From a bacterium (GTDB lineage Bacteria > Elusimicrobiota > Elusimicrobia > UBA1565 > UBA9628): 64,000 nucleotides of DNA. Location of the stretch: assembly GCA_021846045.1 (NCBI GenBank), contig JAJZCM010000004.1, positions 1,244 through 65,243 of the forward strand, given 5' to 3'. Shown here in pieces: positions 3,485-59,399 of this stretch. Position 1 is the stretch's first letter; each line of letters starts with the position of its first letter. A program made the translations under genes and the position numbers. A model generated the notes under the pieces. That model was not told where the DNA came from and searched no databases. It saw nothing but the letters and a program-made list of their open reading frames with translations.

Positions 3485-3901
3485 ATGTTGATGCCTAAAC
3501 GCGTTAAATACAGAAAGCCGCACAGCCATCCCCGCATTAAGGGCTTGGCCAAGCGCGGCACCGAGATTTCTTTCGGAGAATTTGGGCTTAAGGCTTTGGA
3601 ACCGAAATGGGTGACGGCGCGCCAGATTGAATCAGCTCGCGTCGCCATCGGTCGCTACCTTAAAAAAGGCGGTAAGCTTTGGGTCCGCGTTTTCCCGGAC
3701 AAAGCAGTGACGAAACATCCGGCCGAGACCCGCATGGGAAAAGGAAAAGGCGCCCCTGATCATTGGGTTTGCGTGGTTAAGCCGGGACGAGTTCTTTTTG
3801 AGTTGGAAGGAATTCCTCAAGAAGAGGCGGAAAAGGCGTTTGGTTCCGCTTCATACAAGCTTCCGATCAAGACCAAGGTAGTTGTTCGAGAGCACGTCTA
3901 A
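3485..3901 (+). CDS. rplP: 50S ribosomal protein L16
   Basis: [26 protein letters not shown]. Confidence 0.98.
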
Positions 3902-3916
3902 TCTAAAGGTTTTAAA

Positions 3917-4129
3917 ATGAAGACAAAAGAACGAGAAGCGAAGAAAAGTTTGACCGTGGCGGAGTTGGAGCAGGAGCTTCGGCAAACGAAAGAAAAGTTG
4001 GCAAATCTTTCTTGGAAACATTCTTTAAGTCCGTTGGATAATCCGATGGAATTGAGAAATTTGAGGCGCTATATCGCCCAGATTAATACTTGGATTTCCA
4101 ATAAGAAGGTGGGTACTCATGGCGCTTGA
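3917..4129 (+). CDS. rpmC: 50S ribosomal protein L29
   Basis: 70 aa, LDNPMELRNLRRYIAQINT; position between L16 and S17. Confidence 0.93.
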   Translation: MKTKEREAKKSLTVAELEQELRQTKEKLANLSWKHSLSPLDNPMELRNLRRYIAQINTWISNKKVGTHGA

Positions 4130-12448: not shown

Positions 12449-13072
12449 ATGGCTAATTATAGCGGACCCGTTTGCAAACTTTGCCGTCGGGAGCAAACCA
12501 AGCTTTTTCTTAAAGGCGACAAGTGCCATACGCGCTGCGTTTTAGATAAGCGTCCAACCAAGCCCGGAATGGCGGGCGTTCAACGGGGAAAAATGTCGGC
12601 TTATGCCGTGCGTTTGAGGGAAAAACAGAAGCTTCGCCGTTTTGTTTTGATGACGGAAAAGCCTTTTCGCCGATGGGTGGAGCAGGCTTCCAAAGCCGCC
12701 AACAGCGGAGCTGAATTATTGACCCTTTTGGAAATGCGGCTTGATAATGTGGTGAGAAGAATGGGAGTCGCTTCTTCTCTCAAAACCGCCCGGCAGATTG
12801 TTTCTCACGGGCATATCAAAGTCAACGGCCGCTGGCTCAATATTCCCTCTTATCGTTGCCGCGTGGGGGATGTCGTCGCCTTGGACCCAAAACTCAAGGA
12901 AAACGTGGGAGTCAAATTGAGCCTTGAAACCGCTCAGAGACTGAACAATCGCCCTAACTATATGGAGTTTGACGTGACCGCAATGTCGGCGAAAGTAACC
13001 CGTTTGCCGGAACGCAGCGAGGTTTCTCTGCCGGTTTCCGAGCAGCTGATTGTCGAATACTATTCAAGATAA
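12449..13072 (+). CDS. rpsD: 30S ribosomal protein S4
   Basis: GPVCKLCRRE, LEMRLDNVV, ARQIVSHGH, IVEYYSR. Confidence 0.98.
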   Translation: MANYSGPVCKLCRREQTKLFLKGDKCHTRCVLDKRPTKPGMAGVQRGKMSAYAVRLREKQKLRRFVLMTEKPFRRWVEQASKAANSGAELLTLLEMRLDNVVRRMGVASSLKTARQIVSHGHIKVNGRWLNIPSYRCRVGDVVALDPKLKENVGVKLSLETAQRLNNRPNYMEFDVTAMSAKVTRLPERSEVSLPVSEQLIVEYYSR

Positions 13073-21839: not shown

Positions 21840-23065
21840 CAACCCCTATTTTCGCGTCAAAGGCCTTTCGCCGCTTTTTGATTTTAGCGCCGCTTATTTT
21901 TCCGCTTTCAGTTTTTGCTGAGGCGGCGCCCATTTCAATTGCGTTTGCCCATACCGGCAACCCTCCGAAAATCGTTTCCGGATACCGTTTAGGCTCCGAT
22001 TATTTTTTGGGCGCGGATGAAATGGCGCGTCTTTATGGAGCGCAGATCTATTGGCGTCCGGTATCAAAAATCGTGGAACTGAGCCGCTCGGGGCGTATCG
22101 TCGCTTTTAAGGCCAATGCGGCGGCGGCGTCTGTCTCGGGACATGCGGTTCCGCTTAAGTCTCCTATCGTGTGGAGCGCTTCGGATGCGTGGATTCCGGT
22201 TTCTTTTTTGGAGTCCCCTGCTTTCGCTGACTGGTCCGGGACCCCGGCCTTTTTCGATCAGCGTAAGTCGCTTTTGACGATTGGGGAATCAAAGCCTCTG
22301 TCGCCAGTGATTGCTCCTATCCATCCCAAAGCGGCTCCCGTTGCGAAACCGCAGGTTCCTTATGGACGCATTTGGGTTAGAAAGCTTCGCATCGTCGTTG
22401 ATCCGGGCCACGGCGGAAAGGACCCGGGCGCGAGGGGAATTCATGGCGCTCTTGAGAAGGATATCAATCTTAAAGCCGCTCTGGAGCTTGTCCGTTTGCT
22501 GAAAAAAACCGGCGTTTTCGACGTTCGCTTGACTCGTCACGATGACACCTTTGTCTCTCTTTCCAAACGCTCCGAGATTGCCAACAAATGGAAGGCCGAT
22601 CTGTTCGTTTCCCTTCACTCCAATGCCGCGCAAAACCCCAGAGATTCCGGATTTGAGACTTATTTTATGTCTGAGAAGGCTTCCGACCCGCACGCGCAGC
22701 GTTTGGCGGAGTTTGAAAACTCTTCCATTAACTATGAGTCCAAGTTTCGCCAACAGGCTGAAGTTCAAATGCTCTTGGGCGAGTTATCGAAAACGGAATA
22801 TGTCAACGCTTCTTCGGAGTTCGCGGGTCTGGTTTCCCGGGAGACCAGCGGAGAGGTCAATATCCCGGACAAGGGGGTCGCACAGGCGGGGTTTTACGTG
22901 CTAAGAGGGACTCACGCGCCGGCCATCCTTTTTGAGATGGGATATTTGACCAATGCCAAAGACGAAGAGGATTTAAGGAGCGAAAGTTTTCGCCGGCGCC
23001 TCATGCGCGGTTTATATTCGGGGATTGTCGATTATGCAAAAAAAATCAACCATCCAAAAAAATAG
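21836..23065 (+). CDS. N-acetylmuramoyl-L-alanine amidase (Amidase_3) with N-terminal accessory domain
   Basis: Signal peptide; IVVDPGHGGKDPG, EKDINL, SLHSNA, LFEMGYLTN. Confidence 0.94.
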   Translation: MTTPIFASKAFRRFLILAPLIFPLSVFAEAAPISIAFAHTGNPPKIVSGYRLGSDYFLGADEMARLYGAQIYWRPVSKIVELSRSGRIVAFKANAAAASVSGHAVPLKSPIVWSASDAWIPVSFLESPAFADWSGTPAFFDQRKSLLTIGESKPLSPVIAPIHPKAAPVAKPQVPYGRIWVRKLRIVVDPGHGGKDPGARGIHGALEKDINLKAALELVRLLKKTGVFDVRLTRHDDTFVSLSKRSEIANKWKADLFVSLHSNAAQNPRDSGFETYFMSEKASDPHAQRLAEFENSSINYESKFRQQAEVQMLLGELSKTEYVNASSEFAGLVSRETSGEVNIPDKGVAQAGFYVLRGTHAPAILFEMGYLTNAKDEEDLRSESFRRRLMRGLYSGIVDYAKKINHPKK

Positions 23066-23873
23066 CATTCGGGAGACCGCTCGCCCTATTGGAGTGTTTG
23101 ACTCGGGGATTGGAGGGCTCACCGTTTTTAAAGCTTTGCGCGCATTGATGCCGGAAGAGGATATAATTTATTTTGGGGACACGGCGCATCTGCCCTATGG
23201 TTCGAAATCCAAGGCTTCGATCGTTCAATTTTCGGTTGAGATCGCCCGTTTCTTATGCCGACAAAATATTAAAGCGTTGGTCGTGGCTTGCAATACCTCC
23301 ACCGCGGTGGCCTTGTCCGAAATTAAAAAAGCCGTTTCTATTCCGGTCGAAGGGGTTATTGTTCCCGGAGCGCGGGCTTGCTCCCGGATTGGTTCCCAGA
23401 AAATTGGAGTGATTGGAACCGAGGGGACGGTTAGGTCAGGGGCTTATGCGAAGGAAATAAAAAAATTTTTTCCTCAAGCCCGTGTTTTTCAAGTGGCGTG
23501 TCCTCTTTTTGTTCCCTTGGTTGAAGAGGGATGGTGGAATTTTGACGTGACCGAAGCGGTGGCGCGGATTTACCTCAAATCCCTTCAAAAAGCCCGGGTG
23601 GACTCCCTGGTTTTGGGGTGCACTCATTACCCGGTTATTAAATCGGTCATTGCGCGCGTCATGGGGAGAAAGGTATCGTTGATTGATTCTGGAGAAGAAA
23701 CGGCCAAGGAGTTTGAAAAAACATTGGAGTCGCTCAAATTGAGAAAGAAGAAAGGCCGCGGCTGGTCTCGCTTTTACGCTTCCGATGATCCCGGGCGGTT
23801 CTTGAAGATGTCCCGCCGCTTTCTCGGCTCCTCAATTACGGTCAACCAAGTCTTAAAGAAAAATTTTGAATAA
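23034..23873 (+). CDS. murI: Glutamate racemase
   Basis: IGVFDSGIGGLTV, PYGSKS, VACNTST, LGCTHYP. Confidence 0.97.
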   Translation: MQKKSTIQKNSIRETARPIGVFDSGIGGLTVFKALRALMPEEDIIYFGDTAHLPYGSKSKASIVQFSVEIARFLCRQNIKALVVACNTSTAVALSEIKKAVSIPVEGVIVPGARACSRIGSQKIGVIGTEGTVRSGAYAKEIKKFFPQARVFQVACPLFVPLVEEGWWNFDVTEAVARIYLKSLQKARVDSLVLGCTHYPVIKSVIARVMGRKVSLIDSGEETAKEFEKTLESLKLRKKKGRGWSRFYASDDPGRFLKMSRRFLGSSITVNQVLKKNFE

Positions 23874-23963
23874 CTGCTCAGGTTCGTCATTCCGGCGCAA
23901 GCCGGAATCCAGAAAATCGCTGCTCTGGACCCCGGCTTGCGCCGGGGTGACGTGAGTAGTTAA
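23870..23963 (+). mobile_element. 94-bp MITE-like element carrying an inverted CGTC-REP hairpin dimer (copy 1)
   Basis: Imperfect 12-bp terminal inverted repeats ATAACTGCTCAG / GTGAGTAGTTAA; direct repeat AATTTTGA at 23862-23869 and 23964-23971; core 23885-23952. Confidence 0.85.
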
Positions 23964-23976
23964 AATTTTGAATGAT

Positions 23977-24573
23977 ATGAATGAAACGATCGCTTTAATG
24001 GCGCGGGCCAAGGCTTCCATTGATAATGGCTTGAGTCGGTTGGGCAAGGACATGGATTTCCAAAATCCCGTGGACTCGGTCTTGGTGGTCTTCGCTTCTC
24101 GCGCCGTGGCCTCTTCCAATGCGATAGCCTTGTTGATTTCCCACGGACATGAGATCGAGGCCTTGCCCATCTTGAATGCCTTGAGCATTCTATCGGTATG
24201 GTCGCGCTGGATCATGGAGAAAGACTCGGAAGATAGGGCCAATGAAGCGTTGTCTCAAATCTCAAAACCGGATTGGGTAATCTATTGGCAGAAGGATTTG
24301 TTGTCCGAGCGCGCCGCGCATCTTAATTTTGAAAGCGCGCTTAGACAAATGATCATTGAGCTTAAACCTCTCAGGTTTTACTCTAAAACCGGCAGCGTTC
24401 CCTGGGATCATTTATCCGAAAAATACTTTTTTAGGCCCCCGGCGGCGTCTACGGTGGGCGAGGCCGCGGGCCTTTTTATGACGCATATCGTGGAAGCGTT
24501 GGAAGTTCGATGGAAGGGATATTTTACGGGACTAGAAGAAGTCGCTAATCGACAGCGGAGGCAGAAGGCATGA
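23977..24573 (+). CDS. Hypothetical all-helical protein, weakly reminiscent of DUF5677/HEPN-like folds
   Basis: About 198-aa ORF; stop overlaps the rho-like start (ATGA); family guess is weak. Confidence 0.7.
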   Translation: MNETIALMARAKASIDNGLSRLGKDMDFQNPVDSVLVVFASRAVASSNAIALLISHGHEIEALPILNALSILSVWSRWIMEKDSEDRANEALSQISKPDWVIYWQKDLLSERAAHLNFESALRQMIIELKPLRFYSKTGSVPWDHLSEKYFFRPPAASTVGEAAGLFMTHIVEALEVRWKGYFTGLEEVANRQRRQKA

Positions 24574-26085: not shown

Positions 26086-28602
26086 ATGAGCCATAAAACA
26101 TCAATCGAAAAAGTTGCGCATTCATCAGGGAGTGTTTTGGTCACCGAAAACCAGTTGAAGGTTATTAAGGATAAATATCTCCGTGATGCGGCGTCTGTTG
26201 AAACGTGGCTCAGGGGAGTCGCTCACAATATCGCTTTAGCGGAAATCATTTACGATTCCCGAGCCGAGGAGTGGGGGGCGTTTGACGGCGTTCATATCGT
26301 TTCTGAAAAAATTCCGGCCTCTTTAGGCGTCGCCGTTTCGCGCATGAACCTTTTTCACGACGGATTGCGTTCTTCTTCAGAGCGGGAGAAGAACTTCGCG
26401 TGTTTGATGTCAAATCTCGAGAAAATTTACCAAAAAAATAAAATTGCGCAATCCTTGGTGTCCACGTGGGAGGATAAATTTTTTGCCTTGATGTCCTCTT
26501 GGGATTTTTTGCCTAATTCTCCGACTTTAATGAATGCGGGGCGGGATTTGCAGCAGCTGTCCGCCTGCTATGTTCTTCCCGTGGCCGATTCGATGGAGGG
26601 CATCAATGATGCCTTGGCCGCGCAGTCCTTGATTCAAAAATCAGGCGGCGGAACGGGTTTTGCTTTCAGCCAGCTTCGCTCCCGAGGAGATTTGGTTAAG
26701 AAAACCCACGGCGTCGCTTCCGGCGCGATTTCCTTCATGCAGCTTTTCGACAAGATGACGGAAGTCGTCAAGCAGGGAGGAACCCGCAGAGGGGCGAATA
26801 TGGGTATATTGCATTACACCCACCCCGAGATCAAGGATTTTATCACTCTTAAATCACAGCCCGGCGTCATGGAAAATTTCAACGTCTCGGTCGCCATTGA
26901 TGAGACTTTCATGAAAGCGGTGGCTGCCGACTCTGAATACGATCTCCTGAATCCCCGCACCAAGGAACCTGCGGGGCGGGTCAAAGCGCGTGAAATTTTC
27001 GACTTGATGGTAGAACAGGCGTGGAAGACCGGAGACCCGGGCATGATCGTCATCGACCGGATCAATTCCTCCGGATCAAACCCCACTCCCGCGTTAGGGC
27101 ACATTGAGTCGACCAACCCTTGCGGAGAACAGCCGCTTTTGCCTTGGGAGCCTTGCAACTTGGGTTCTCTTAATCTTTCTAGTTTCGTCCATGGAAATGT
27201 CATGTCGGGCGAGTTTGATTTTAAGAAACTCGGCGAAGCCGTTCGGACTGCAGTTCGCTTTTTAGATGACGTCATTGAGGTTAATAATTATCCTCTTCCT
27301 GAAATCGAACGAATGGCCAAGGGAAACCGCCGAATAGGCCTTGGCGTCATGGGTTTTGCCGAGGCTTTGGTTAAAGTGGGAATCGCTTATGATTCTGAGG
27401 CTTGTTTTTCTTTCGCCGAAAAATTAATGCATTCCATTAATGACGCGGCGCTCAATGCCTCCGAGGAATTGGCCAAGGAGCGCGGCGTATTCCCGAATTG
27501 GAAAAACTCCGTTTATGATCCGGAAGGATCTCATTTTAGGGGAGAAAGCCGCACGCCTCGCCATTGCGCGCGCACAACCATCGCTCCAACCGGAACGATT
27601 GCTATTGCCGCCGGACTCCAGGGCGGAGGAATTGAGCCCTTCTTTGCTATCGCCTACACCCGCTACAACGCGCAGGCTCTCGCCAAGATCAAAAACGGAG
27701 AAAAACCGGCCGACAAAGACGTCTTCTTTGAGATTAATCCTCTTTTTCAGAGCATCGCCAAGGAAAATAATTTCTTTGGACTCTCGGAAAAGGAATTGTG
27801 GGGCTTAATCGATAAAAATCACAAGTCCGTGCGGGGGCTCTCGGCCGTTCCGGCTAAAATCCAGTCGCTGTTCCCGACCGCCCATGACGTCGGAATCGAA
27901 GATCATGTCCGCATTCAGGCCGCGTTCCAAAAACATACGGATAACGGGGTTTCAAAAACTATCAATCTTCCGCATTCCGCTACGGTTGAGGATGTTCGCC
28001 GGGCTTATCTGTTGGCCTATGAGCTCAATTGCAAGGGAATCACGATTTACCGCGACGGTTCGAAGGCCCAGCAGGTTTTAAACATCGCTCCGGCTCAGGA
28101 GAAAAAGAATCGCCGCGAATCGGTCCAGCGGGCTTTCGGCGTTTCTTCCGAGTATTATCAGATGCGGACCGGTTATGGGCCGCTCCATATTCACATCAAC
28201 TACGATGAGCGGGGCCCTTACCAGATGTTTACCAATATTCCGCCCTTGGGAACTGAAATTTCGGGACTTACGTCTTTAGTGGGAATTCTCCTTTCCAAGT
28301 ATTTTGCGGAGGGAGGAGATCCCATTCGCGTTTTGAAGCATCTCAACTGCGTCAAAGGCGACCGCCCGTCCGGCTTCGGTGAAAATAGGGTGGACTCAAT
28401 TCCCCATGCCATCGCGATCGCCCTTCGTCAGCACTTGAAAAAAACCGGATGGCTGGAAGAAGGCTCGGGCTCGGCTAAGATGGAGGCCGTGCCGCTTCCC
28501 CTGAGCTCGTATTGCCCAAAGTGCTATTCTTCCAATGTTTCGTTTGAATCCGGATGTCCCGGTCCCGTTTGCCACGACTGCGGCTTTTCCGAGTGTTCAT
28601 AA
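26086..28602 (+). CDS. nrdJ: Class II (adenosylcobalamin-dependent) ribonucleotide reductase with C-terminal TSCPD-like domain and Zn ribbon
   Basis: FLPNSPTLMNAG, LSACYV, RRGANMG, TNPCGEQ, CNLGS, TIAPTGT, KGITIYRDGS; no intein seen. Confidence 0.94.
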   Translation: MSHKTSIEKVAHSSGSVLVTENQLKVIKDKYLRDAASVETWLRGVAHNIALAEIIYDSRAEEWGAFDGVHIVSEKIPASLGVAVSRMNLFHDGLRSSSEREKNFACLMSNLEKIYQKNKIAQSLVSTWEDKFFALMSSWDFLPNSPTLMNAGRDLQQLSACYVLPVADSMEGINDALAAQSLIQKSGGGTGFAFSQLRSRGDLVKKTHGVASGAISFMQLFDKMTEVVKQGGTRRGANMGILHYTHPEIKDFITLKSQPGVMENFNVSVAIDETFMKAVAADSEYDLLNPRTKEPAGRVKAREIFDLMVEQAWKTGDPGMIVIDRINSSGSNPTPALGHIESTNPCGEQPLLPWEPCNLGSLNLSSFVHGNVMSGEFDFKKLGEAVRTAVRFLDDVIEVNNYPLPEIERMAKGNRRIGLGVMGFAEALVKVGIAYDSEACFSFAEKLMHSINDAALNASEELAKERGVFPNWKNSVYDPEGSHFRGESRTPRHCARTTIAPTGTIAIAAGLQGGGIEPFFAIAYTRYNAQALAKIKNGEKPADKDVFFEINPLFQSIAKENNFFGLSEKELWGLIDKNHKSVRGLSAVPAKIQSLFPTAHDVGIEDHVRIQAAFQKHTDNGVSKTINLPHSATVEDVRRAYLLAYELNCKGITIYRDGSKAQQVLNIAPAQEKKNRRESVQRAFGVSSEYYQMRTGYGPLHIHINYDERGPYQMFTNIPPLGTEISGLTSLVGILLSKYFAEGGDPIRVLKHLNCVKGDRPSGFGENRVDSIPHAIAIALRQHLKKTGWLEEGSGSAKMEAVPLPLSSYCPKCYSSNVSFESGCPGPVCHDCGFSECS

Positions 28603-28610
28603 AAACGAAG

Positions 28611-28704
28611 GCAACTACTCACGTCACCCCGACGAAAGTCGGGGTCCAGAGCAGCAATCTTCTGGATTCCGGCTTGCGCCGGAATGACGAACCTGAGCAG
28701 TTAC
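28611..28704 (-). mobile_element. 94-bp MITE-like element with CGTC-REP dimer (copy 2, inverted relative to copy 1)
   Basis: Ends GCAACTACTCAC / CTGAGCAGTTAC; perfect 8-bp direct repeat AAACGAAG at 28603-28610 and 28705-28712; near-identical to the reverse complement of copy 1. Confidence 0.87.
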
Positions 28705-28744
28705 AAACGAAGTTTAGCTGTATAGGTTTTGTAGAATAATTGGA

Positions 28745-42912: not shown

Positions 42913-42936
42913 AAGAGAAGTATAGAATATAGGGAC

Positions 42937-43078
42937 ATAGCGGAGTGTTCCACAAATTCATTTGCATTCGTCACCCCGACGAAAGTCGGGGTCCAGGCCC
43001 GCGTAAAAGACTGGATTCCGGCTTTCGCCGGAATGACGACGAGGCAAATGTAAGGAAGCGTTGGGGACACTACACTAG
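42937..43078. repeat. CGTC-REP dimer (core 42969-43038) inside a different nested inverted-repeat shell
   Basis: Same hairpin pair as copies 1/2; CATTTGC/GCAAATG inner inverted repeat; outer CGGAGTGTTCC / GGGACACTACA bracketed by ATAG / CTAG. Confidence 0.78.
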
Positions 43079-54897: not shown

Positions 54898-55011
54898 ATT
54901 TCCTCGCTTACAAACCAGTCTATAGTTTGGGATACATATGGTTGGGAAACATGCTAATGTTTAGGCGTGAAACTCGATGGCCGCACCCTCAGCCACGAGA
55001 CGTCCGAGGAA

Positions 55012-55624
55012 TGAGGCGCTCCCAGTTCTTCGGACCACGGTTGACCTGATTTGAGCTGGTCTTTGCCGTTGTCGTTTGAAGATAAGAAGAAAGTCATCGT
55101 AGGCCGTTCCTCTTTCTTTTTTGCTTCTTTTTTTCTGTGAATTGCTGTGGACAACTTCTCAACGGCGTCCCCAGCCATGCCTCAACTCTCACGACCTTCT
55201 TCCCTGCCAGTATGCACAAGCCGGCGTTTGATAGTCCAGCGATTGATGCAACCGCCCGACGAAGATATTGTCGAGAAACCGGCCCCGACCGTCCATGCTG
55301 ATTCGGACCCCGGCATTCTCCAGCCGCCCGAGGTAGTCCTCGCTCGTAAAGATCCGCCTCAAGCGCATCGTCGGAACTCCGGCCTGTCATCGGGGCCGAA
55401 AACACGCCAGGCAATCCTTCCAGAGCCTGCTTTTTCCACCGCGTAATCGCCGTCGGATGAACCTCGTAGCGGGTTGAGCGTCCGGTCTTCCCTCAACGCA
55501 GACACCACCACGCGGGCTTTGAAGTCCGCACTATACTGTTTCTGCAGTTTTCGCATCTTTTTGCTCCCCATTTAAGGTCATTTTACCACCTCAGCCCCTG
55601 GTCCGAATTTTTGGGAGCGCCTCA
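55012..55624 (-). mobile_element. IS3-family remnant, internally deleted (copy A)
   Basis: TG..CA ends with inverted repeats TGAGGCGCTCCCA-N4-TTCGGACCA; OrfA YSADFKARVV, HPTAITRWKKQ; OrfB pieces ISMDGRGRFLDNIFV and HQSLDYQTP. Confidence 0.88.
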
Positions 55625-55747
55625 GTCTTTGGGCCAGTGGCTCAGGTTGGTCAAGGTTCCGCTCTTGACCTTGCCGTGCTCCCGATAGGACTCGCGCAGG
55701 AGGACGGCGGGGGGCGAATTTCGATTGGGTATCGTGTGTATGAACAT
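55625..55747 (-). pseudogene. IS1634-family transposase N-terminal fragment cut by IS3 copy A
   Basis: MFIHTIPNRNSPPAVLLRESYREHGKVKSGTLTNLSHWPKD, then TGA supplied by the IS3 end; possible element end GGGGAACTTCAGCTTAA at 55882-55898. Confidence 0.75.
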
Positions 55748-58262: not shown

Positions 58263-58574
58263 TTACTTTCCGGGGTTTTTGGCCTTGGGAATCAGCCGGT
58301 CGAAGTCTTCCCCGCGCAGGGTTTCCTTTGTCCTCAACTCTTCCGCTGCGGCTTTGAAAACTTCCCAGTTGCTTTCAAGAGTGGTCCGAGCCGTCTGGTA
58401 GGCGTCTTCTACGAAAGAGTTGACCTCGGCGTCGATGGCCTTTTTGGTCTCTTCGCTCCTCGGCTTTTGGTTTTGTCGTTCGTTTTCAAATCCATAGCTG
58501 ACGCGCCCGATTTTTTCGGACATTCCAAATTTCATGACCATGTATGTGGCGATTTCGGTCGCTTTTTCAAGATC
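58263..58574 (-). pseudogene. FtsH / peptidase M41 C-terminal fragment abutting IS3 copy B
   Basis: SDLEKATEIATYMVMKFGMSEKIG, SEETKKAIDAEV, KETLRGEDF; no AAA domain or HEXXH. Confidence 0.82.
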
Positions 58575-58942
58575 TGAGGCGCTCCCAGTTCTTCGGACCA
58601 CGGTTGACCTGATTTGAGCTGGTCTTTGCCGTCTCACCGAAATCTCCGGGGGGCCAAGTTCTATCATCGCCCGCCGCTCCTCAAGTCCAGGGCCCCATTT
58701 TTTTAGCCACTCCAGCTCCACTTTCAGCCGACCTATCTGCTCGTAAAGATCCGCCTCAAGCGCATCATCGGGACTCCGGCTTGCCATCTCGTTGAGCGTC
58801 CGGTCTTCACTCAACGCGGACACCACCACGCGCGCTTTGAAGTCCGCACTATACTGTTTCTGCAGTTTTCGCATCTTTTTGCTCCCCATTTAAGGTCATT
58901 TTACCACCTCAGCCCCTGGTCCGAATTTTTGGGAGCGCCTCT
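58575..58942 (-). mobile_element. IS3-family remnant (copy B), different internal deletions
   Basis: 58-bp end identical to 55012-55069; the other end matches 55560-55624; OrfA LYEQIGRLKVELEWLKK, OrfB start EERRAMIE..ISVRRQ. Confidence 0.88.
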
Positions 58943-59327: not shown

Positions 59328-59399
59328 GGGCCTGTAGTTCAACGGATAGAGCGCGTGGCTTCGAACCACGAGATCCGGGTTCGATTCCTGGCGGGCCCA
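59328..59399 (+). tRNA. tRNA-Arg (anticodon TCG), CCA not encoded
   Basis: Acceptor GGGCCTG/CGGGCCC; anticodon arm CGTGG-CTTCGAA-CCACG; T-arm CCGGG-TTCGATT-CCTGG. Confidence 0.95.

What the first reader, a model, noticed from the sequence alone, without database searches (positions are those of the whole stretch)
23862..23971. MITE that carries a REP hairpin dimer: 12-bp TIRs, 8-bp TSD, inserted at gene 3' ends
Copies 23870-23963 and 28611-28704 are both 94 bp, near-identical and inverted. Each has an 8-bp flanking duplication (AATTTTGA, extending to 12 bp; AAACGAAG, perfect) and TIRs approximating GTAACTGCTCAG. Removing copy 1 rejoins murI (NFE-TGA) to the next gene's ATG one base later; the insertion keeps the protein unchanged by supplying TAA. 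The core is CGTCA-hairpin-CCAG..CTGG-hairpin-TGACG with GNRA loops and compensatory stem changes (GGC/GCC vs GAC/GTC), so the structure is under selection. CGTC-tagged REPs are known and usually linked to HUH-type mobility without TSDs. TIR/TSD packaging implies a DDE transposase (8-bp TSDs occur in IS256, IS1, ISL3 and IS1595 families) moves the REP dimer, which would be a hybrid REP-MITE system.
Basis: partly seen in the sequence, partly recalled or inferred. Interest (0 to 1): 0.8.

Follow-up and report, generated by a model that had tools for sequence, protein, structure and literature searches.

The report
Small transposon carrying paired REP hairpins
Two 94-bp insertions in this Elusimicrobiota genome are copies of a small non-coding transposon, found in several bacterial phyla, that carries two "CGTC-tagged" hairpin repeats, which shows one way these widespread repeats get copied around genomes.

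Summary
Copies at 23870-23963 (+) and 28611-28704 (-) are 94 bp and 86/94 identical. Each has imperfect terminal inverted repeats (consensus GTAACTRCTCA) and a perfect 8-bp flanking duplication. Five related genomes (94% identical RNR protein) have clean empty sites at both positions, so these are real insertions.

Elements with the same ends occur in unrelated MAGs (Ca. Competibacteraceae, an unclassified bacterium, another Elusimicrobia MAG) and in metagenome contigs. Of 33 distinct full-length elements, 19 have flanking 8-mers matching at 7/8 or better. None of 66 displaced control pairs does. Targets are A+T-rich and often lie next to stop codons.

The core hairpin, CGTCATTCCGGCGCAAGCCGGAATCCAG, is a known repeat. 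It is a CGTC-1 REP (Di Nocera 2013) and matches the Neisseria NTS / Ssn-related motif (Nat Commun 2025) at 26/28, the two differences forming a compensated stem pair. Its described partner is a GIY-YIG ssDNA nuclease, not an HUH transposase.

I found no autonomous element. An IS1595-family element in a relative has different ends. IS66 shares only the GTAA start and the 8-bp duplication. A third hairpin dimer in the window lacks these ends.

Coxiella QMITE2, a MITE holding a GTAG REP, is a precedent. Verdict: a real MITE and a new variant of a known kind, with the transposase unidentified.

The parts
23862..23869 (.). Left copy of the target-site duplication of copy 1 (AATTTTGA); it forms the last codons of murI.
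   Evidence: Relatives carry this sequence once.
23870..23963 (+). MITE copy 1, 94 bp. Left TIR 23870-23881 (ATAACTGCTCAG) and right TIR 23952-23963. It supplies the murI stop codon TAA at 23871-23873.
   Evidence: Absent from five related loci.
23885..23912 (+). Hairpin A of copy 1: CGTCATTCCGGCGCAAGCCGGAATCCAG (CGTC-1 REP / Ssn-related motif).
   Evidence: It matches the NTS consensus from PMC11893778 at 26/28 by my own position-by-position comparison.
23925..23952 (-). Hairpin B of copy 1: CGTCACCCCGGCGCAAGCCGGGGTCCAG, in inverted orientation.
23964..23971 (.). Right copy of the target-site duplication of copy 1 (AATTTTGA).
28603..28610 (.). Left copy of the target-site duplication of copy 2 (AAACGAAG); it starts one base after the RNR stop codon (28600-28602).
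28611..28704 (-). MITE copy 2, 94 bp, inverted relative to copy 1. Its ends are GTAACTGCTCAG and GCAACTACTCAC. Its hairpins are at 28622-28649 and 28662-28689.
   Evidence: Absent from five related loci.
28705..28712 (.). Right copy of the target-site duplication of copy 2 (AAACGAAG).
42936..43078 (-). Third hairpin dimer (hairpins at 42969-42996 and 43011-43038) inside an indel of about 143 nt. It has different imperfect outer inverted repeats (AGTGTCCCCAA.../...TTGTGGAACACT and CATTTGC.../...GCAAATG). It has no GTAAC ends and no clean duplication.
   Evidence: A strain whose neighbouring SBP protein is 98% identical has CGCGGCT in its place.
23034..23873 (+). murI (glutamate racemase), the host gene whose 3' end received copy 1.
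   Evidence: Pfam Asp_Glu_race; gene call in L001.
26086..28602 (+). Class II (B12-dependent) ribonucleotide reductase, the host gene directly upstream of copy 2.
   Evidence: Pfam; names given by sources to its homologs.

Best explanation
The feature is a 94-bp non-autonomous DNA transposon (MITE). It has about 11-bp imperfect terminal inverted repeats (consensus GTAACTRCTCA). It inserts by a staggered cut that leaves an 8-bp duplication, with a preference for A+T-rich DNA at or just after stop codons. It encodes nothing, so a transposase made elsewhere must move it. By analogy with other TIR/TSD elements this would be a DDE-type enzyme, but I did not find it. IS66-like is only a guess. Almost all of the interior consists of two inverted copies of a 28-nt CGTC-tagged hairpin (CGTC-1 REP, also called NTS or Ssn-related motif). 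In Neisseria this motif is bound and cut as single-stranded DNA by the GIY-YIG nuclease SsnA. The MITE therefore acts as a vehicle that plants pairs of these hairpins at new sites. Shown here: the insertions, the TIRs, the 8-bp TSDs, the empty sites, the multi-genome distribution, the hairpin's identity with the published motif, and stem covariation. Inferred: the class of transposase, and any role of an Ssn nuclease or of the hairpins in this organism.
For: Both copies have perfect 8-bp flanking repeats and 9/12 TIRs. Five related loci from four or more assemblies lack both insertions and carry the target once. Elements of 84-197 bp with the same ends occur in Ca. Competibacteraceae CAZGON01 (about 45 loci), in bacterium CBDUZI01, in Elusimicrobia JACQJO01 and in metagenome contigs. 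Of 33 distinct elements, 12 have 8/8 and 7 have 7/8 flanking identity, against 0 of 66 displaced controls at 7/8 or better. The TSDs are 74% A+T in loci that are 51% A+T. Of 23 reconstructed sites, 20 lie outside long reading frames and 10 lie within 15 nt of a stop codon. The hairpin matches NTS = CGTCATTCCCGCGMAVGCGGGAATCYRG at 26/28 with a compensated pair. Four of the six window hairpins match the published SRM expression, against 0.25 expected. Across 21 distinct hairpins, 97.6% of stem cells pair and 5 of 8 pairs show double changes, while CGTCA and the C after the stem stay fixed. Those fixed positions are the ones reported as critical for SsnA cleavage and binding.
Against: I found no autonomous element with these ends in the window, in about 1.2 Mb of fetched loci, or in the plasmid collection. 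The transposase class therefore rests on analogy. I saw no GIY-YIG gene in the window or next to any MITE. The terminal bases of copy 1 deviate from the consensus (A...AA), which makes its exact boundary ambiguous over a few bases. About a third of the 33 elements lack a recognisable duplication; these may be old copies or mis-paired ends.
Confidence: 0.8

Rival explanations
1. The hairpins are part of the transposon ends, acting as subterminal binding sites for the unknown transposase. Free CGTC hairpins elsewhere are decayed or truncated MITEs. On this reading the link to Ssn nucleases is irrelevant here.
For: In every family found, a CGTCA hairpin sits 0-6 nt (in one family about 45 nt) inside each TIR, although spacers and stems differ. 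A 62-bp mini-element keeps only the TIRs and one hairpin (L095). Coxiella QMITE2 decays into bare REPs that lack TIRs and DRs (PMC5896051).
Against: The same hairpin occurs as monomers and dimers with unrelated flanks in 19 viral contigs. It also occurs in the window's third dimer and on both sides of ssn genes that have no GTAAC ends. The conserved hairpin positions are those SsnA needs.
Confidence: 0.25
2. The unit is a REPIN-like hairpin doublet moved by a single-strand DNA enzyme (a RAYT-type HUH transposase, or the Ssn nuclease itself), and the flanking repeats are incidental.
For: The doublet architecture resembles REPINs/BIMEs. The Ssn paper notes that NTS-ssnA-NTS looks like an insertion sequence. 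The third dimer is an indel without a clean duplication.
Against: Fixed-length 8-bp duplications abut conserved TIRs in many genomes. CGTC REPs are not associated with RAYT genes (PMC3733652). The reported SsnA cut lies about 3 nt upstream of CGTCA, which is 8-12 nt inside the element and not at its ends. Three distinct ssn loci that I inspected have no GTAACTRCTCA ends.
Confidence: 0.05
3. The element is retained mainly because the host uses it as a 3'-end RNA structure (mRNA stabiliser, processing site or terminator) for murI and RNR.
For: The structure is very stable. The copies sit right at stop codons in both orientations. REPs and MITEs are known to act this way (PMC3733652 background).
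Against: No T-run follows the hairpins on the sense strand, and no terminator-like site is called there. There is no Rfam match. Close relatives do without the element at both sites. Position near stop codons is equally explained by the A+T-rich target preference together with tolerance of insertions there.
Confidence: 0.15

Closest known systems
Coxiella burnetii QMITE2 (Wachter et al. 2018, PMC5896051)
   Same: A short MITE (150-190 bp) with TIRs and variable-sequence direct repeats of 7-11 nt. Its core is a REP palindrome. It is found mainly at ORF 3' ends, sometimes overlapping the last codons. Truncated versions are bare REPs.
   Different: The QMITE2 REP is GTAG-tagged and is an IS1111 target. 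Its TIRs are 17-29 nt and its duplication length varies. The element here carries two CGTC-tagged hairpins, has about 11-nt TIRs and a fixed 8-bp duplication. I could not compare the sequences because the paper text does not print the TIRs.
CGTC-1 REP family, including Neisseria dRS3 (Di Nocera et al. 2013, PMC3733652)
   Same: CGTC head, 8-bp stem beginning A-T, 4-nt loop, CCA tail, mostly arranged as inverted dimers. This is exactly the hairpin seen here.
   Different: That study found no associated transposase and reports no TIRs or TSDs. It did note that all Halothiobacillus neapolitanus CGTC-1 dimers lie inside a 41-bp palindrome, whose consensus differs from GTAACTRCTCA.
NTS / Ssn-related motif with GIY-YIG nuclease SsnA (Nat Commun 2025, PMC11893778)
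   Same: The window hairpin matches the 28-nt NTS at 26/28, and four of six hairpins fit the published SRM expression. The conserved CGTCA and the C after the stem are the positions critical for SsnA cleavage and binding.
   Different: No ssn gene was seen in the window. The paper does not describe MITEs (zero uses of the word), TIRs or TSDs. The ssn loci I inspected are flanked by hairpins but not by GTAACTRCTCA.
IS66 family insertion sequences
   Same: Terminal repeats start GTAA and the target duplication is 8 bp (PMC11946415; ISEc8 ends read).
   Different: The IS66 consensus start is GTAAGCG. ISEc8 (GTAAGCGTACA) matches GTAACTGCTCA at only 3 of the 7 positions after GTAA, which is chance level. 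No IS66 gene was found near any copy.
REPIN / RAYT system
   Same: An inverted doublet of REP hairpins behaving as the repeated unit.
   Different: REPINs have GTAG-type heads, are linked to a Y1 HUH transposase and leave no TIR/TSD signature.

Membership tests
MITE (non-autonomous TIR transposon) | Short, with no coding capacity | tested here: met
   94 bp. The only reading frame touched is the murI stop codon.
MITE (non-autonomous TIR transposon) | Terminal inverted repeats conserved among copies | tested here: met
   9/12 within each copy. GTAACTRCTCA is shared by families in unrelated genomes.
MITE (non-autonomous TIR transposon) | Target-site duplication of fixed length and variable sequence | tested here: met
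   8 bp. Of 33 elements, 19 match at 7/8 or better, against 0 of 66 displaced controls.
MITE (non-autonomous TIR transposon) | Empty sites in relatives | tested here: met
   Both sites are empty in L105-L109.
MITE (non-autonomous TIR transposon) | A cognate autonomous element with the same ends | tested here: not met
   No pair of ends 0.4-6 kb apart with a duplication was found in any held locus. Solo ends are remnants next to housekeeping genes. The search was limited to the loci fetched.
CGTC-1 REP / Ssn-related motif | CGTC head, 8-bp stem starting A-T, 4-nt loop, CCA(G) tail; fits the NTS/SRM consensus | tested here: met
   26/28 to NTS. The SRM expression hits 4 of 6 hairpins against 0.25 expected.
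CGTC-1 REP / Ssn-related motif | Stem kept by compensatory change while the flanks stay fixed | tested here: met
   97.6% paired; 5 of 8 pairs show double changes; 0 of 500 shuffles reach the observed score. The sequence set was chosen by flanks and then stripped of 6 obvious non-hairpins.
CGTC-1 REP / Ssn-related motif | An ssn (GIY-YIG cd10448) gene in the same genome, usually flanked by the motif | tested here: inconclusive
   None in the 64-kb window or in the MITE loci.
CGTC-1 REP / Ssn-related motif | Bound and cut as ssDNA by the cognate Ssn nuclease | not testable with these tools
   Needs a biochemical assay.
IS66-derived MITE | Ends starting GTAAGCG | tested here: not met
   The ends start GTAACTR. 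Only GTAA is shared.
IS66-derived MITE | 8-bp duplication | tested here: met
IS1595-derived MITE | Ends like the resident IS1595-family element | tested here: not met
   The IS1595-family element in L106 has TSD CGATAACC but ends GGGGCTTATCCCTTTGGCAAAAG.
REP/REPIN with RAYT | GTAG-type head and a RAYT gene flanked by the repeat | tested here: not met
   The head is CGTC. No Y1_Tnp domain was found in the window ORFs scanned. The literature reports no RAYT association for CGTC REPs.

The most novel reading that the evidence does not exclude
CGTC-tagged hairpins (NTS/SRM), whose means of spreading has been open since 2013, are disseminated across phyla by one MITE superfamily with conserved GTAACTRCTCA ends. 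That superfamily would be mobilised by a transposase family not yet tied to these ends. Alternatively, Ssn nucleases and these MITEs form a functional pair, for example with Ssn acting on the single-stranded hairpins during replication or DNA uptake to control the element or the flanking genes.
Probability: 0.2. Interest if true: 0.75.

Novelty: new variant of a known kind. Interest (0 to 1): 0.5.

Why it matters
CGTC-tagged REPs are abundant in many bacteria, including Neisseria dRS3/NTS and some Rickettsia RPEs. They were reported to lack any dedicated transposase. The 2025 Ssn study showed what binds them but not how they multiply. This window, with its empty-site controls and relatives in other phyla, shows that at least some hairpin dimers are copied by ordinary cut-and-duplicate transposition inside a MITE. 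That gives a concrete, testable route for their spread and a conserved end sequence with which to look for the enzyme. Locally, one insertion separated two genes whose stop and start codons were one base apart, and it replaced the murI stop codon without changing the protein.

Tried and rejected
1. Autonomous partner. I looked for end pairs up to 6 kb apart with duplications in all held loci, at solo ends and their neighbouring ORFs, in viral contigs (only chance coding hits) and in plasmids. Nothing was found.
2. IS1595. The element in relative L106 has an 8-bp TSD but unrelated ends.
3. IS66. ISEc8 ends compared directly give no similarity beyond GTAA.
4. The idea that the MITE is a deleted TIR-hairpin-ssn-hairpin-TIR cassette. 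Three distinct loci have hairpin flanks but no GTAACTRCTCA. A 334-bp element that could have held a 94-aa gene turned out to be a MITE with another small palindromic element nested inside it.
5. A window-specific left-end pattern in JGI metagenomes gave zero hits.
6. The Neisseria match covering the TIR region (GGTAACTTCTAATTCGTCATTCCC). Only two dRS3 sites were in the 50 kb sampled, so I could not judge whether it recurs. I treated it as chance.
7. Terminator or known RNA. No terminator-like site on the sense strand and no Rfam family.
8. A clean TSD for the third dimer. None was found; the filled and empty alleles differ by 143 nt versus 7 unrelated nt.
9. Searching the literature for the raw end sequences returned only unrelated primers and barcodes.

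Full report
OBSERVATION

Copy 1 occupies 23870-23963 on the + strand and copy 2 occupies 28611-28704 on the - strand. Both are 94 bp. Put in the same orientation they are identical at 86 of 94 positions, and the repeat finder reports 91-nt arms that are 95% complementary.

Each copy is flanked by a perfect 8-bp direct repeat:
- AATTTTGA at 23862-23869 and 23964-23971
- AAACGAAG at 28603-28610 and 28705-28712

Within each copy the terminal 12 nt match their inverted partner at 9 of 12 positions (GTAACTGCTCAG / GCAACTACTCAC). Copy 1 has deviant terminal bases (A...AA). These happen to extend its flanking repeat to 12 nt, which makes its boundary ambiguous by a few bases.

The interior is CGTCA-hairpin-TCCAG, a short spacer, then CTGGA-hairpin-TGACG. 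As single-stranded DNA each strand folds far better than shuffled controls, with z from -6.4 to -10.4. The 28-nt hairpin pattern is expected 0.00 times by chance in the window and occurs three times. The third occurrence, near 43.0 kb, was not in the finding.

GENE CONTEXT AND ORGANISM

The window matches contigs of a metagenome-assembled genome, GCA_027330785.1. The closest named homologs of its ribonucleotide reductase are from Elusimicrobia/Elusimicrobiota.

- Copy 1 lies at the 3' end of murI (Asp_Glu_race). The murI stop codon TAA (23871-23873) is inside the element.
- Copy 2 begins nine bases after the stop codon of a class II ribonucleotide reductase, and its duplication starts one base after that stop.

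Removing copy 1 and one duplicate restores ...KKNFE-TGA-t-ATG, with the ATG at 23977 in frame with the downstream gene (MNETIALMARAK).

EMPTY SITES

Five loci from relatives whose reductase is 94% identical at the protein level keep the same gene order. They are L105 (GCA_021822495.1), L106 and L107 (ENA), L108 (GCA_021842185.1) and L109 (GCA_027406845.1).

- In all five, murI ends ...KKNFE-TAA, followed by one base and the ATG of the next gene. The target AAAATTTTGAAT is present once and there is no element.
- In four of them the reductase-to-dsbA spacer is 39-44 nt with no element. L105 has an unrelated extra stretch of about 55 nt there.

Both copies are therefore insertions in the window's lineage, not ancestral sequence lost in relatives by chance at two places.

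THE SAME ENDS ELSEWHERE

About a quarter of the hits are chance matches inside genes. The rest are short elements with the same architecture:
- about 45 loci in one Ca. Competibacteraceae MAG: a roughly 145-bp element, GTAACTGCTCACCCGTCATTCCGGC...GAATGACG..GGGTGAGTAGTTAC
- nine loci in an unclassified bacterium (CBDUZI01)
- two loci in another Elusimicrobia MAG (L041, L063)
- single loci in other MAGs

A metagenome scan added further families of 105-142 bp.

Counting distinct full-length elements in everything fetched gives 33. Their flanking 8-mers are identical at 8/8 in 12 elements, at 7/8 in 7 and at 6/8 in 4. As a control I took 8-mers displaced 8 or 16 nt outward, and none of 66 reaches 7/8.

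The duplicated targets are 74% A+T, in loci that are 51% A+T. After computational removal of the element, 20 of 23 sites lie outside long reading frames and 10 of 23 lie within 15 nt of a stop codon.

This is a real MITE superfamily. Its ends are GTAACTRCTCA, its duplication is 8 bp, and it prefers A+T-rich DNA at gene ends.

WHAT THE HAIRPIN IS

A full-text search for the hairpin sequence led to the 2025 description of the Ssn nuclease family (PMC11893778). That paper defines the Neisseria Transformation Sequence as CGTCATTCCCGCGMAVGCGGGAATCYRG. The NTS encompasses the classical dRS3 repeat.

The window hairpin CGTCATTCCGGCGCAAGCCGGAATCCAG matches the NTS at 26 of 28 positions. The two differences form a compensated C-G to G-C stem pair. 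The paper's degenerate Ssn-related motif hits four of the six window hairpins, against 0.25 expected in simulated sequence.

The 2013 survey of tagged palindromes (PMC3733652) classifies the same structure as the CGTC-1 REP family: 8-bp stem starting A-T, 4-nt loop, CCA tail, mostly arranged as inverted dimers. That survey:
- equates Neisseria dRS3 with CGTC-1
- states that CGTC REPs, unlike GTAG REPs, are not associated with any transposase gene
- notes that all Halothiobacillus neapolitanus CGTC-1 dimers sit inside a 41-bp palindrome

Across 21 distinct hairpins taken from the fetched loci, 97.6% of stem positions pair and five of eight stem pairs show changes on both sides. The CGTCA head and the C after the stem stay fixed. 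According to the Ssn paper these fixed positions are the ones critical for SsnA cleavage and binding. Because the stem is a DNA palindrome, this covariation cannot distinguish an RNA role from a single-stranded DNA role.

THE HAIRPIN IS NOT TIED TO THESE ENDS

The same hairpin occurs alone or as inverted dimers, with unrelated flanks, in 19 viral-collection contigs.

In the window, the third dimer (hairpins at 42969-42996 and 43011-43038) sits in a segment of about 143 nt that has different, imperfect outer inverted repeats. A strain whose neighbouring SBP protein is 98% identical (L127) has seven unrelated bases (CGCGGCT) in place of that segment. Two further relatives are also empty there, and a third has a different insert. 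I could find no clean duplication for this third element.

Hairpin dimers in this genome are thus carried by at least two kinds of indel. Only one kind has the GTAAC ends.

THE SEARCH FOR THE ENZYME

No pair of these ends more than 400 bp apart with a duplication exists in any held locus. Solo ends are truncated copies next to ordinary genes. The other candidates gave the following results.
- IS1595. A relative carries a 2.85-kb IS1595-family insertion with an 8-bp duplication (CGATAACC). Its ends are GGGGCTTATCCCTTTGGCAAAAG, so it is not the partner.
- IS66. This family fits on two counts, ends starting GTAA and 8-bp duplications (PMC11946415). However, the ISEc8 ends I read directly (GTAAGCGTACA) match GTAACTGCTCA at only three of the seven positions after GTAA. 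That is what chance gives.
- A deleted ssn cassette. All are flanked by CGTC hairpins, which confirms the family. None has GTAACTRCTCA ends.
- The window itself. No GIY-YIG, Y1 or DDE domain was found in the window ORFs scanned.

The transposase remains unidentified. That it is DDE-type is an inference from the TIR/TSD signature.

FUNCTION AT THE INSERTION SITES

No T-run follows the hairpins on the sense strand, no terminator-like site is called there, and no Rfam family matches. A stabilising or processing role for the RNA is possible but untested. Relatives manage without the element at both sites.

COMPARISON WITH KNOWN SYSTEMS

The nearest described thing is Coxiella QMITE2 (PMC5896051). 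It is a 150-190 bp MITE with TIRs and 7-11 nt direct repeats, with a REP as its core. It sits at ORF 3' ends, sometimes overlapping the last codons, and its truncated versions are bare REPs. Its REP is GTAG-tagged and serves as an IS1111 target.

The element here is the CGTC-tagged counterpart. It has a fixed 8-bp duplication and short conserved ends, and it is spread across at least two phyla (Elusimicrobiota, and Pseudomonadota via Competibacteraceae) plus unclassified MAGs. Neither the 2013 CGTC survey nor the 2025 Ssn paper reports TIRs or duplications around these hairpins. A search for follow-up work found none.

VERDICT

The hairpins are a known repeat class whose described partner is a GIY-YIG ssDNA nuclease. 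A REP inside a MITE has a precedent. I rate this a new variant of a known kind, of moderate interest. It gives a concrete route for the spread of CGTC/NTS-type hairpins and a conserved end sequence with which to look for the missing transposase.

Noticed in passing
L106 17361-20211 (a relative of the window organism, ENA ERZ27237304): A 2.85-kb insertion absent from L107 and L108. It has an 8-bp duplication (CGATAACC) and ends GGGGCTTATCCCTTTGGCAAAAG / GGGAATTATCCCTTTCGCAAAAGC. It carries an IS1595-family transposase gene plus four small ORFs.
   Followed up: partly
window 55004-55632 and 58574-58941: Repeated segments (151 nt at 98% identity, 58 nt at 100%, plus inverted arms) holding fragments of an ORF that starts MGSKKMRKLQKQYSADFKARVVVSAL. 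By eye this looks like an IS3-type OrfA, but Pfam gave no hit for the 70-aa fragment. One copy is fused in frame to the C-terminal part of an FtsH-like Peptidase_M41 (58263-58889), next to a tRNA at 59328-59399.
   Followed up: partly
L059 7169-7503; also L023, L047, L050 (bacterium CBDUZI01): In these copies the MITE has itself been a target. A second small palindromic element (ends GGAGCCTGTCGGACTTAAGT) is nested in the spacer. A short palindrome (CCCTGGAC..AAACCATCCAGG) is inserted in the loop of the first hairpin in several copies.
   Followed up: no
L095 2571-2632 (Ca. Competibacteraceae): A 62-bp mini-element with both TIRs and a single CGTCA...TGACG hairpin. This is the smallest member seen.
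   Followed up: no
L105 about 12518-12616 and L128 about 3860-3990: At the sites where the window carries copy 2 and the third dimer, these relatives carry other, unrelated short inserts. The two intergenic spots appear to be recurrent insertion or indel hotspots.
   Followed up: no
L110 1500-1541 (Neisseria gonorrhoeae chromosome, filed as a plasmid in PLSDB): An NTS/dRS3 hairpin preceded by GGTAACTTCTAATT, loosely like the MITE end. BLAST reported 14 matching places in that record, but it gave no per-place coverage, so I do not know how many include the TIR-like part. I could not tell whether the upstream similarity recurs.
   Followed up: partly
L161 2539-2691 (metagenome contig holding an ssn-like GIY-YIG gene): A Y1_Tnp (IS200/IS605-type) gene lies about 1 kb downstream of a hairpin-flanked GIY-YIG gene.
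   Followed up: no
P0039, P0093, P0095, P0108, P0115, P0118 (RNR homologs): Some Elusimicrobia ribonucleotide reductases are about 1250 aa and carry intein/homing-endonuclease Pfam domains (PF14528, PF14890). The window's copy is intein-free.
   Followed up: no
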